NCBI GenBank assembly: GCA_951406725.2
Contig: OX597818.1
Span: forward strand, 52,638,001 to 52,702,000
Direction of reading: 5' to 3'
DNA length: 64,000 bases
Source of the DNA: Octopus vulgaris
Lineage: Eukaryota
Positions 3,771-53,807 of the stretch are shown here, one piece after another. The notes under the pieces are model-generated. The model had not been told where the DNA came from and did not search any database. It worked only from the letters and a program-made list of their open reading frames with translations. The translations under genes and the position numbers were made by a program. Numbering within the stretch: the stretch's first letter is position 1; each line of letters begins with the position of its first letter.

Positions 3771-4349
3771 ACTGAAACAGACAAAAAATTAATGACTGTG
3801 GACTGATCGATTCCTATAAAACTGCAGAAATTATTACAAAAACAGGTAGTGCACACACGGTAGCTGAAATGATTATTGTGCCTGCTGTAGAAGCAGAAGT
3901 TATGAATCAAGATCCTTCATCTATCATTAAGGCTCTACCTTTGAGTAATAATTCTATTCGTAGGGGAATTGATAAAATGTCAGGTCATATCGAAGTCATA
4001 CTAATTCAAAGATTTAAAACAACGGATTTTTTTATTCAAATGGATAAAAGCACAGTTATTGACAATAAAGCCTTTTTAATGGGATATGTACGATATTTTG
4101 ATGGAAACTGTGCATTACAAGAAGATTTATTATTTGTAAAACAGTTGGAGACTGACACAACGGGCGCTTCTATATCTTTCCTGTGAAAACGTTTTTTGAA
4201 GAAAAAGAAATTCCATATTATGAAAATTTAGTCTCATGTACTACTGATGGTGCAATGTCTATGATTGGGAGACACAAAGGATTTATCTCTCAAAAAGGTT
4301 GTGCCACCAAATTCTAGTTTTACACTGTGTATGGGAGTTACAGGCTATC

Positions 4350-4388
<39 letters not shown>

Positions 4389-4462
4389 ACACATACACAC
4401 CCACAAATATATATGTATGTATATAATATATGTATATATACATGTATATATATACCTGTATA

Positions 4463-4505
<43 letters not shown>

Positions 4506-4509
<4 letters not shown>

Positions 4510-5308
4510 CATAAATGAGGGCAAAGGAAAAAAATTCTAATGCCAAATATGCCGAAAAATTGGACATATTGTCCATTAACCATATAATTTTTTCACAATT
4601 TCGAGTAGCGTGCGTATTGTGAAAAAATTATATGGTTAATGGACAACATGTCCAATTTTTCGGCATATTTGGCATTAGAATTTTTTCCTTTGCCCTCATT
4701 TATGAATTGTTTATAAATTTAACCGTTAAAGGTATTTTTTAATATGCTGGCCATTGATAAGATTTTTTTCGAGAAAATATTTTTTTTCGAAAAGAATTTT
4801 ATCCTCACAATTGATATAAATTTAAGTGTTCACTTCCAAACTAACTAACTCACTCTGTGAGAGTCTCAGTTCAAATCGCACGTGCCTCGAATGGGCTGGA
4901 GTATTTCTATTTTGGATGTATTTGGGGTACTTAGTTGTGCCCATGACTTACTATTTGCTTCTTCCATGGGTATGAGTAAGTATCTCATTTATTTCTTTTG
5001 CCACATGTATCACTGACGAAGAGAGGGCTCTTAGTAGCTAACTCTGAAATCGGTCCGATATGGTAATAATGGAATTTTTTAGAAATTTCTGTCGATCTTT
5101 TTTTCGAGTAGCGTGCGTATTGTGAAAAAATTATATGGTTAATGGACAATATGTCTAATTTTTCGGCATATTTGGCATTAGAATTTTTTTCCTCATTTAT
5201 GAATTGTTTATAAATTTAACCGTTAAAGGTATTTTTTAATATGCTGGCCATTGATAAAATTTTTTTCGAGAAAATTTTTTTTTTCGAAAAGAATTTTATC
5301 CTCACATT

Positions 5309-5313
<5 letters not shown>
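4506..5313 (+). mobile_element. Penelope-like non-autonomous element: inverted 5' segment plus tandem pseudo-LTRs
   Basis: 4506-4599 is the reverse complement of 4616-4708; 4600-4816 is repeated directly at 5103-5313; hammerhead motif between repeats; (TA)n on both sides. Confidence 0.75.
5008..5065 (+). ncRNA. Type I hammerhead ribozyme motif, core intact
   Basis: tatca CTGACGA AGAG..CTCT GAAA TCGGTCCGA TA tggta: stem I tatca/tggta, stem II AGAG/CTCT, near-palindromic stem III, AUA cleavage triplet. Confidence 0.75.
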
Positions 5314-5343
<30 letters not shown>

Positions 5344-5766
5344 TATGCATGTGTGTGTGTATGTGTGTGTGTGTGTGTGTGTTTATGGATGCATGCATGT
5401 CTCATAGGTTAATCTTTTTTGGTACGCTTATGCCTTAGAACCCTGAACCATACTACTTATAGCATACTAAGCAACCAGAGCACGCAGAAGAAGAATAACT
5501 TTTGAGTTTAATTAAAAGATTGGGAGATTAGGACTGATAAAATGAAGACAGAAATGTTTACCAAACCTGTCAGTACTGTTAAACAAACAAGAGATTCAAA
5601 GGAATATTACACGTAACTTAGAAAAATTACACAAACTGGAAATCAAATATGTAGACATCTTGTAGCGACTATCAGGAAAATGTCTGGTATAATTACCATA
5701 TTACACTAGCAGAAAAACGCTTCTCTGTTAGTATAATACGATTATTATTATTATTATCATTATTAC

Positions 5767-28075: not shown

Positions 28076-28495
28076 CGAGGCTGCGAGCTGGCAGAATCGT
28101 TAGCACACCGGGTGAAATGCTTCGCGGTATTTCGTCTGCTGCTACGTTCTGAGTTCAAATTCCGCCGAGGTCGACTTTGCTTTTCATCATTTCGGGGTCG
28201 ATAAATTAAGTGCCAGTTACGCACTGGGGTCGATATAAACGACTTAATCCGTTTGTCTGTCCTTGTTTGTTCTCTCTGTGTTTAGCCCCTTGTGGGTCGT
28301 AAAGGAATAGGTTTTTCGTCTGTTGTTACGTTCTGTGTCCAAATTCCACCGAGGTCGACTTTGCCTTTCATCCTTTCGGGGTCGATAAATAAAGTACCAG
28401 TTTCGCACCGGGGTCGATGTAATCGACTTAATCCGTTTGTCTGTCCTTGTTTGTCCCCTCTATGTTTAGCCCCTTGTGGGCAATAAAGAAATAGA
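28076..28495 (+). mobile_element. SINE family B, full plus partial tandem unit
   Basis: Second unit restarts at GGT(A/T)TTTCGTCTG near 28310. Confidence 0.9.
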
Positions 28496-28503
28496 TATGT
28501 GTG

Positions 28504-35864: not shown

Positions 35865-36517
35865 ACCACAGGACTTATTCTTTGTAAGCCTAGTACTTAT
35901 TCTATCGGTCTCATTTGCCGAACTGCTAAGTTACGGGGACGTAAACGCACCAGCATCGGTTGTCAAGCAATGTTGGGGGGGTGGGCACAAACACAGGCAC
36001 ACAAACATATACACATACGAGCTGGCAGAAACGTTAGCACGTCGGGCAAAATGTGTAGCCGTATTTCGTCTGCCGTTACGTTCTGAGTTCAAATTCCGCC
36101 GAGGTCGACTTTGCCTTTCATCCTTTCGGGGTCGATAAATTAAGTACCAGTTACGCACTGTGGCCGATATAATCGACTTAATCCGTCTGTCTGTCCTTGT
36201 TTGTCTCCTCTGTGTTTAGCCCTTGTGGGTAGTAAAGAAATAGGTATTTCGTCTGCCGTTACGTTCTGAGTTCAAATTCCGCCGAGGTCGACTTTGCCTT
36301 TCATCCTTTCGGGGTCGATAAATTTAGTACCAGTTACGCACTGGGGTCGATGTAATCGACTTAATCCCTTTGTTTGTCCTTGTTTGTCCCCTCTATGTTT
36401 AACCCCTTGTGGGCAATAAAGAAATAACAAACATATACACACACACATACATATACATATATATACATATACACGACGGGCTCCTTTCAGTTTCCGCCTA
36501 CAAAATCCACTTACAAA
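35865..36517. mobile_element. Family A SINE (-) with a family B dimer (+, 36018-36425) nested in its microsatellite core
   Basis: ACAAACATATACACA duplicated either side of the nested element. Confidence 0.85.
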
Positions 36518-52665: not shown

Positions 52666-53300
52666 ATACTCTTTTACTCTTTTACTTGTTTCAGTCATTT
52701 GACTGTGGCCATGCTGGAGCACCACCTTTAGTCAACCACATCGACCCCCAGGACTTATTCTTTGAAAGCCTAGTACTTATTCTATCGGTCTCTTTTGCCG
52801 AACTGCAAGGTTACGGGGACGTAAACACGCCAGCATCGGTTGTCAAGCGATGGGGGGAAGGCAAACACAGACACACAAACACATACACGCACCTACATAT
52901 ATGTACATATACACGACGGGCTTCTTTCAGTTTCCGTCTACCAAATCCACTCACAAGGCTTTGGTCGGCTCGAGGCTATAGTAGAAGACACTTGCCCAAG
53001 GCGTCACGCATTGGAACTGAACCTAGAACGATGTGATTGGTAAACAAGCTACTTCCCACATAGCCACTGCTACGTCTACACTCTTATACTCTCTCTTTTT
53101 ACTCTTTTACTTGTTTCAGTTATTTCACTGTGGCCATGTTGGAGCACCGCCTTTAGTCGAGCAAATCGACCCCAGGACTTATTCTTTGTAAGCCTAGTAC
53201 TTATTCTATCGGTCTCTTTGCCGAACCGCTAGGTTACGAGGACGTAAACACACCAGCATCGGTTGTCAAGTGATGTTGGAGGGACAAACACAGGCACACT

Positions 53301-53332
<32 letters not shown>

Positions 53333-53807
53333 CATATATACGATGGGCTTCTTTCAATTTCCGCCTACCAATTCCACTCACAAGGCTTTGGTCAGCTTGA
53401 GGCTATAGTAGAAGACACTTGCCCAAGGTGCCACGCAGTGGGACTGAACCCGGAACCATGTGGTTGGTTAGCAAGCTACTTACCACACAGCCACATGTAT
53501 ATATTTATATTTTATTCCTTATATGCTCCAGTCTCTAGATAGCAGTGATGCTGGGGCACCACCCTGATGGCTTTTCGTCAAACGAAGCGACCCCAATACT
53601 TATTTCTTAAAGCCTGTGTTTATTTTATTGCTGCTCTTTGTCGAGTATAAGTTCGAGGACGTAAGGAAACCAACACTTGTTGTTAAATAATGGTGGTGGG
53701 GAACAAACAAAATACAGACACGACTACACACACACACACACACACACATACACACAAACACACACACACGCACACCCGCATGTGTGTATATATATATATA
53801 TATATAA

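What the first reader, a model, noticed from the sequence alone, without database searches (positions are those of the whole stretch)
4506..5313. ORF-less Penelope-architecture element with an intact hammerhead (retrozyme-like)
Seen: ~94-bp inverted 5' segment, two ~210-bp direct repeats about 500 bp apart, a complete hammerhead core between them, (TA)n on both flanks, near-identical repeats (young). Established: PLEs show tandem pseudo-LTRs, inverted 5' pieces and minimal type I hammerheads, and non-LTR retrozymes are known in some invertebrates. Inference: a ~500-nt self-cleaving unit mobilised by a PLE enzyme.
Basis: partly seen in the sequence, partly recalled or inferred. Interest (0 to 1): 0.75.

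Follow-up and report, generated by a model that had tools for sequence, protein, structure and literature searches.

The report
Penelope-footprint retrozyme, hammerhead in predicted intron
This is one of at least several hundred copies of a 503-base, protein-free jumping repeat that carries a predicted self-cutting RNA motif; its kind (a retrozyme) is known, its insertions have the shape left by Penelope-type enzymes, which likely copy it, and the motif lies between conserved splice-site-like signals that would let splicing remove it.

Summary
Observation confirmed. 4506-5315 is an inverted 94-nt arm plus 1.43 turns of a 503-nt ORF-less unit with one type I hammerhead (5008-5065, predicted cut after 5060), set in (TA)n. 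The genome holds 808 exact matches to a 24-mer of it. All sampled copies are circular permutations of the unit; 152 of 173 segments end at one of two fixed UAUA sites, 62 of 94 loci have two arms joined 5'-to-5', 11 segments carry two cleavage sites. Hammerhead stems covary across subfamilies. This fits a non-LTR retrozyme moved in trans by a Penelope-like enzyme; a young Neptune-like coding family here also ends at two sites in (TA)n, but shares no sequence with the unit. It is not a truncated coding element. A circular template is likely, not shown (about 0.55). New here: GTAAGT and a pyrimidine-AG acceptor bracket the hammerhead in three related families; 1,224 unspliced versus 0 spliced genomic junctions; splicing itself is untested. 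The kind is published, and this scan has reported like elements 21 times on other DNA. New member of a known kind.

The parts
4355..4505 (.). Left flank: compound AT-rich microsatellite ending in (TA)n, the insertion target
4506..4599 (-). Inverted arm: second, short copy that begins at 3' end site A and points outward; joined 5'-to-5' to the main arm
   Evidence: same layout at 62 of 94 loci
4599..5101 (+). One full 503-nt unit (ORF-less, 34% GC, predicted highly paired as a circle, z about -8)
4599..4817 (+). Upstream direct repeat (pseudo-LTR-like; the extra 0.43 turn)
4699..4722 (+). 3' end site A: hairpin whose 3' arm holds UAUA; 73 of 173 segments end at its equivalent
4803..4825 (+). 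3' end site B: AUAUA just after a long hairpin, 103 nt past site A; 79 of 173 segments end at its equivalent
4869..4877 (+). B-box-like motif GTTCAAATC (GTTCGAATC in the sister family); role unknown, no T-arm or clear A box
   Evidence: motif name recalled
4976..5082 (+). Predicted 107-nt spliceosomal intron enclosing the hammerhead: GTAAGT 4976-81, CTAAC 5038-42, TTTTTTAG ending 5082
   Evidence: splicing not observed
5008..5065 (+). Type I hammerhead ribozyme, palindromic helix III, predicted cut after A5060
5102..5315 (+). Downstream direct repeat ending at site B
5311..5346 (.). Right flank (TA)n

Best explanation
This is a copy of an ORF-less, 503-nt hammerhead-bearing repeat family with a Penelope-type insertion footprint, likely a non-LTR retrozyme pasted in by a Penelope-like (probably Neptune-type) reverse transcriptase/endonuclease working in trans. 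Shown: copy number, circular permutation, two fixed 3' ends at UAUA motifs running into (TA)n, two-armed inverted insertions, covarying hammerhead stems, subfamily variants shared by both repeats of a copy. Inferred: the enzyme nicks (TA)n; the freed TATA-3' end pairs with UAUA at site A or B of the RNA and primes reverse transcription; because (TA)n is self-complementary both strands can prime, giving two arms; the enzyme runs more than one turn (1.43 here, 1.84 at most). Inferred with less support (about 0.55): the template is a monomer circle made by double self-cleavage (probably as a dimer) of transcripts of two-hammerhead copies, then ligation. Predicted (about 0.5): the hammerhead lies in a retained intron inherited from a Penelope pseudo-LTR.
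For: 808 exact 24-mer matches, control 0; 2,586 first-look candidates. 152 of 173 segments from 94 loci end at site A or B and 128 of those 152 run into (TA)5+; 62 of 94 loci have 5'-to-5' arms; 11 segments span two cleavage sites. No fixed difference between upstream and downstream repeat; subfamily-2 variants stand in both turns of L086, L121, L127, and 18 of 20 segments of 700+ nt are concordant. Hammerhead covariation, kept in a 73-78% sister family and, by eye, in a distant third family that shares only a 72-nt piece of the 3' module. Monomers fold far better than shuffles, z -4.9 to -8.4 in 7 of 7. 16 of 16 copies of a young coding family (RT, CX4CX2C linker, GIY-YIG) end at one of two sites in (TA)n. 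PLE architecture, tail and two internal start sites as described in PMC8557442 and PMC11167929.
Against: No coding parent found: a profile of the unit hit none of 70 loci of four sampled coding PLE families except nested sister-family inserts. No segment longer than 927 nt and no trimer among 173, unlike the long arrays of many retrozymes. Two of 20 long segments (L138, L021) join turns of different subfamilies, which needs a template switch. The active fold is 6.6 kcal/mol above the local minimum, helix III is unstable alone, and position 10.1-11.1 is A-U not G-C. No Rfam hammerhead match. In the Anolis PLE, hammerhead mutants still inserted and priming sites were not homologous to the target (PMC11167929); 8 of 9 Xenopus retrozyme dimers did not cleave in vitro (10.64898/2026.07.22.740005).
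Confidence: 0.85

Rival explanations
1. Same element and enzyme, but no circle: the template is an uncleaved linear read-through RNA of a tandem copy, and the repeats are renewed by re-priming or template jumps; the hammerhead is protein-assisted or acts at another step.
For: Length ceiling near 930 nt and no trimers; subfamily chimeras L138 and L021; active fold not the minimum; uncleaved RNA was the main substrate for the Anolis PLE in vitro (PMC11167929).
Against: Variants shared by both turns of a copy and no position-fixed repeat differences need renewal from one template at each round; 0 indels at 132 crossings of the cut site (biased, since copies were picked by a pattern across this site); related retrozymes make circles in coral, mussel and axolotl (PMC7229834).
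Confidence: 0.4
2. The copies are 5'-truncated ends of a coding Penelope-like element.
For: PLE protein fragments lie near four sampled copies; only four coding families were sampled.
Against: Upstream of every sampled repeat the sequence returns to the unit itself; flank-to-flank hits are microsatellites and other common repeats (output partly cut); at L098, the one case read, a TA tract separates the two elements.
Confidence: 0.05
3. A foldback or MITE-like DNA element, or local DNA duplication, with a chance hammerhead-like motif.
For: The 94-nt inverted arm and (TA) flanks resemble Tc1/mariner-type MITE ends (recalled).
Against: Arm length and 5' ends vary while 3' ends are fixed; 32 of 94 loci have no inverted arm; stems covary.
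Confidence: 0.02

Closest known systems
Metazoan non-LTR retrozymes (PMC7229834; vertebrate survey 10.64898/2026.07.22.740005)
   Same: ORF-less, low-GC repeat unit with one type I hammerhead per unit; monomer and dimer copies; highly paired predicted circle; coexists with PLEs; PLE mobilisation already proposed.
   Different: Unit of 503 nt (170-450 in the first paper, 51-972 in the second); dispersed 1-2-turn copies, no long array in the sample; PLE footprint readable at insertion ends; predicted intron round the ribozyme; cleavage and circles untested; no homologous coding pLTR found.
EN+ Penelope-like elements, Neptune type (PMC8557442, PMC4209133, PMC11167929)
   Same: Partial tandem with pseudo-LTR, inverted 5'-truncated arm, two alternative 3' ends, (TA)n targets, hammerhead with palindromic helix III, intron signals in the repeat.
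   Different: No RT or GIY-YIG ORF; tail 103 nt rather than 30-40; start sites match the target (UAUA against (TA)n), unlike the Anolis Poseidon element; the predicted intron encloses the whole ribozyme, whereas in D. virilis Penelope the intron ends at helix I.
Non-autonomous Chlamys PLEs such as MRC1 (PMC8557442, passage)
   Same: ORF-less elements with pLTRs and head-to-tail copies moved by a PLE.
   Different: Those resemble their autonomous partner at the 3' end and mostly lack hammerheads.

Membership tests
Non-LTR retrozyme | Type I hammerhead in each unit | tested here: met
   Core intact in 100 of 111 stretches; covariation; no Rfam model match
Non-LTR retrozyme | Head-to-tail repeats with two consecutive hammerheads (the 2026 preprint's 'active' copy) | tested here: met
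   Family: 11 of 173 segments span two cut sites. The window copy itself has one and counts as a single-ribozyme offspring
Non-LTR retrozyme | Short unit, low GC, no coding frame | tested here: met
   503 nt, 34% GC; longest frame 76 aa, no Pfam hit; above the 150-450 bp of PMC7229834, inside the 51-972 bp of the preprint
Non-LTR retrozyme | No LTR, primer-binding site or polypurine tract | tested here: inconclusive
   Repeats are variable permutations, not LTRs; no search for a tRNA primer site was run
Non-LTR retrozyme | Self-cleavage of the transcript | not testable with these tools
   Needs a bench assay
Non-LTR retrozyme | Monomeric circular RNA in cells | not testable with these tools
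   Only contigs of runs guessed to be RNA were offered
Non-LTR retrozyme | Target-site duplication, when present, longer than 4 bp | tested here: inconclusive
   Hidden by (TA)n on both sides
Autonomous EN+ PLE | ORF with PLE RT and GIY-YIG endonuclease | tested here: not met
   (no tblastn hit in the window)
PLE-mobilised element (works like) | Partial tandem, inverted 5'-truncated arm, alternative 3' ends (tail), microsatellite target | tested here: met
PLE-mobilised element (works like) | Sequence kinship to the pseudo-LTR of a coding PLE | tested here: inconclusive
   None in 70 loci of four families; the searches scored only 150 of 6,136 and 150 of 14,564 candidates
PLE-mobilised element (works like) | Retained spliceosomal intron in the repeat | tested here: inconclusive
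   Signals conserved in three families; 1,224 unspliced and 0 spliced genomic junctions; no spliced RNA seen
Minimal PLE hammerhead (min-HHR, PMC4209133) | No helix III, helix II of 7-8 bp | tested here: not met
   4-bp palindromic helix III; helix II 4 bp + internal loop + 3-4 bp

The most novel reading that the evidence does not exclude
The hammerhead sits inside a real spliceosomal intron, so splicing and self-cleavage compete: only unspliced RNA is cut, circularised and copied, by a Penelope-type enzyme that primes telomerase-fashion by pairing both strands of a nicked (TA)n target with two UAUA sites of a 503-nt circle. The family would be a minimal natural substrate that explains PLE pseudo-LTRs, inverted arms, tails and intron retention in one mechanism.
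Probability: 0.22. Interest if true: 0.72.

Novelty: new member of a known kind. Interest (0 to 1): 0.45.

Why it matters
How Penelope-like elements make their tandem and inverted ends and keep introns is an open question (PMC8557442), and the retrozyme-PLE link rests on co-occurrence and pLTR similarity (10.64898/2026.07.22.740005). A 503-nt family with hundreds of readable insertions and a young coding PLE in the same genome gives a small, cheap substrate for testing circle use, twin priming on (TA)n and the role of the ribozyme. The kind itself is known and common in this genome, which caps the surprise.

Tried and rejected
Rfam: no hammerhead family; the miRNA hits are the inverted arm and microsatellites. 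Expression: no RNA holder listed; 8 runs guessed to be RNA were laid as contigs, showing family variants but no joint at the predicted intron; no evidence either way on expression, splicing or circles. An apparent fixed difference between the two repeats (A4810 versus T5309-type) was a private change of this copy. Clusters of 5' ends (unit positions ~250, 270, 302, 405) suggested a start site, but several coincide with alignment breaks in older subfamilies, so no start site is claimed. Pol III transcription of the whole unit was set aside: B-box-like motif but many T runs (reasoning, recalled motifs). Parent search in four coding PLE families was blank. A genome search with the covariance model was not available, so distant hammerhead relatives were reached only by DNA stepping. 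Donor 9 of 9 and acceptor 10 of 10 identity between the two close families is not significant alone against 405 of 503 background; the weight comes from the third family. A spliced reading gives only a short frame (by eye). Sequence look-up in earlier scan notes found nothing.

Full report
Observation. The longest stop-to-stop frame inside is 76 aa, without Pfam match. Rfam does not recognise the ribozyme (one search listed 150 of 260 matches, none a hammerhead). The genome is 2.8 Gb; that it is an octopus is my recall of look-alike SINEs and the wording of earlier scan notes, not a test.

The family. The middle of the element gave 2,586 first-look candidates, of which 40 were scored at 95-100%; a 24-mer of the ribozyme has 808 exact matches, the reversed control 0. 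I analysed 94 loci: 29 best hits and 65 picked by the pattern in genome order (6 overlapping duplicates dropped), giving 173 segments. Every segment maps on a closed 503-nt unit. 3' ends are fixed: 73 at site A, 79 at site B (103 nt further; the class includes older subfamilies that lack an 18-nt duplication), 21 elsewhere; 128 of the 152 run into (TA)5+. 5' ends vary. 62 of 94 loci carry two arms joined 5'-to-5' with both 3' ends facing out, as in the window. Eleven segments span two cut sites, none three; the longest is 927 nt. Both end sites contain UAUA next to a predicted hairpin; site B junctions are sharp, site A junctions slip by a few bases.

The ribozyme is under selection. 100 of 111 stretches keep the core (the sample is biased to intact copies). 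In 24 copies chosen for diversity, 97.1% of cells pair and 6 of 17 pairs change on both sides, above 499-500 of 500 shuffles and all slid controls; relatedness inflates these counts and the structure came from the same sequences. A sister family (73-78% identical, unit 456-469 nt, same two ends) keeps all helices with other pairs. A third family shares only about 72 nt of the 3' module at 73-75%, has its own hammerhead of the same build (read by eye), and one copy shows the same head-to-tail return. Natural monomers fold much better than shuffles as circles (7 of 7, z -4.9 to -8.4, 30 shuffles each). Against easy cleavage: the active fold is 6.6 kcal/mol above the local minimum and helix III is stable only as a homodimer (-13.9 kcal/mol), which fits the dimer model of PMC4209133.

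One template per insertion. The two repeats show no position-fixed difference; within-copy divergence is 178 of 4,739 sites against 5.4% between copies. Subfamily-2 variants stand in both turns of L086, L121 and L127, private ones in L100 and L116; 18 of 20 segments of 700+ nt are concordant, though most belong to the major subfamily and say little. This favours renewal of both repeats from one RNA, a circle or a re-read molecule. L138 and L021 join turns of different subfamilies, so template switches occur too. Circle about 0.55, linear about 0.4.

Who moves it. The genome holds a very young coding family (781-codon frame; RT, CX4CX2C linker, GIY-YIG), Neptune-like by the linker described in PMC8557442. 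All 16 copies fetched end at one of two sites in (TA)n. It and three other sampled families share no detectable sequence with the unit (70 loci, some overlapping), apart from nested inserts. The parent is therefore unidentified; the sampling was partial. PLE fragments beside four copies look like neighbours in shared TA tracts (one read in full).

A predicted intron. GTAAGT at 4976, CTAAC at 5038 and TTTTTTAG ending at 5082 enclose the ribozyme. Donor: 66 of 80 and 27 of 28 copies in the two close families; acceptor: 91 of 108 and 28 of 31. In the distant family GTAAGT lies upstream in 5 of the 6 hammerheads whose upstream sequence is still element (10 in all) and an acceptor follows in 7 of 10, at nearly the same offset, against background rates of 0.023 per 100 nt and 0.054 per 40 nt; none of 15 unrelated hammerheads had both. 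The genome has 1,224 exact unspliced donor junctions and 0 exact spliced ones, as expected if PLE copying keeps introns, but also if nothing is spliced. No spliced RNA was seen in contigs, which cannot show absence.

Mechanism. Shown: family structure, ends, arms, covariation, concordance. Inferred: nicking of (TA)n, priming at UAUA on either strand, more-than-unit copying, action of a Neptune-type enzyme. Predicted: cleavage, circularisation, splicing.

What is known. Read: 10.64898/2026.07.22.740005, parts 1-3 of 5, abstract to discussion; PMC7229834, passages, parts 2 and 4 of 6 and section 14; PMC11167929, parts 1-2 of 4; PMC4209133, parts 1-2 of 4; PMC8557442, passages. Non-LTR retrozymes, their circles and the proposed PLE link are in print. 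Searches (listings only for the rest) showed no paper on an octopus retrozyme or on a retrozyme hammerhead inside an intron; no supplement was read, and those of the hammerhead surveys may list cephalopod repeats. Earlier notes of this scan (21 findings in at least 3 genomes, 8 shown) reach the same reading on other hammerhead repeats; they are unchecked AI notes, were seen after my analysis and are not support.

Verdict. Real; a new family of a known kind, filed as a non-LTR retrozyme that works like a non-autonomous PLE, with cleavage and circles untested. Not an autonomous PLE. Interest 0.45; the intron-switch, target-paired priming reading has probability about 0.22 and would merit about 0.72.

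Noticed in passing
window 12460-12830 (+): A second type I hammerhead core (CTGATGA at 12482, long helix II, palindromic helix III) in an AT-rich relic whose 3' part resembles, by eye, the 3' region of a coding PLE family in L068.
   Followed up: partly
L154 2262-3141 (-): An unrelated ORF-less-looking 492-nt tandem unit (repeats 99.5% identical) with a hammerhead and an inverted arm; a relative in L138. Probably another retrozyme family.
   Followed up: partly
L056 781-5572 and 15 other loci (L051-L063, L066, L069, L070): Very young Neptune-like PLE, unit about 4.7 kb, with a 473-codon upstream frame, a U3-A8 hammerhead variant (variant described in PMC4209133), tandem CCAAT/TGACGTC blocks before a TATA box, and terminal repeats up to about 510 nt.
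   Followed up: partly
L171-L200: Third hammerhead family (1,692 first-look candidates, about 90% identical) that shares the 3' end module with this unit but not the rest; suggests module exchange or deep common descent.
   Followed up: partly
L201-L230: A large, GC-richer PLE family (14,564 first-look candidates; frames up to about 850 codons), 27-32% identical to the young family in protein.
   Followed up: no
L138, L021: Copies whose two turns come from different subfamilies: template switching between RNAs.
   Followed up: partly
L018, L029, L039, L057, L069, L127, L134, L208, L229: Many further distinct hammerheads with long helix II in flanks of unrelated loci; the genome seems dense in them.
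   Followed up: no
window 28126-28498, 36061-36426, 52672-53494: Tandem 183-184-nt and 427-nt repeats that look like octopus SINEs (recalled, not tested).
   Followed up: no
window 3780-4340: Left of the insertion, a decayed coding-like stretch (105-codon frame at 3869, no real Pfam hit), possibly a DNA transposon relic.
   Followed up: partly
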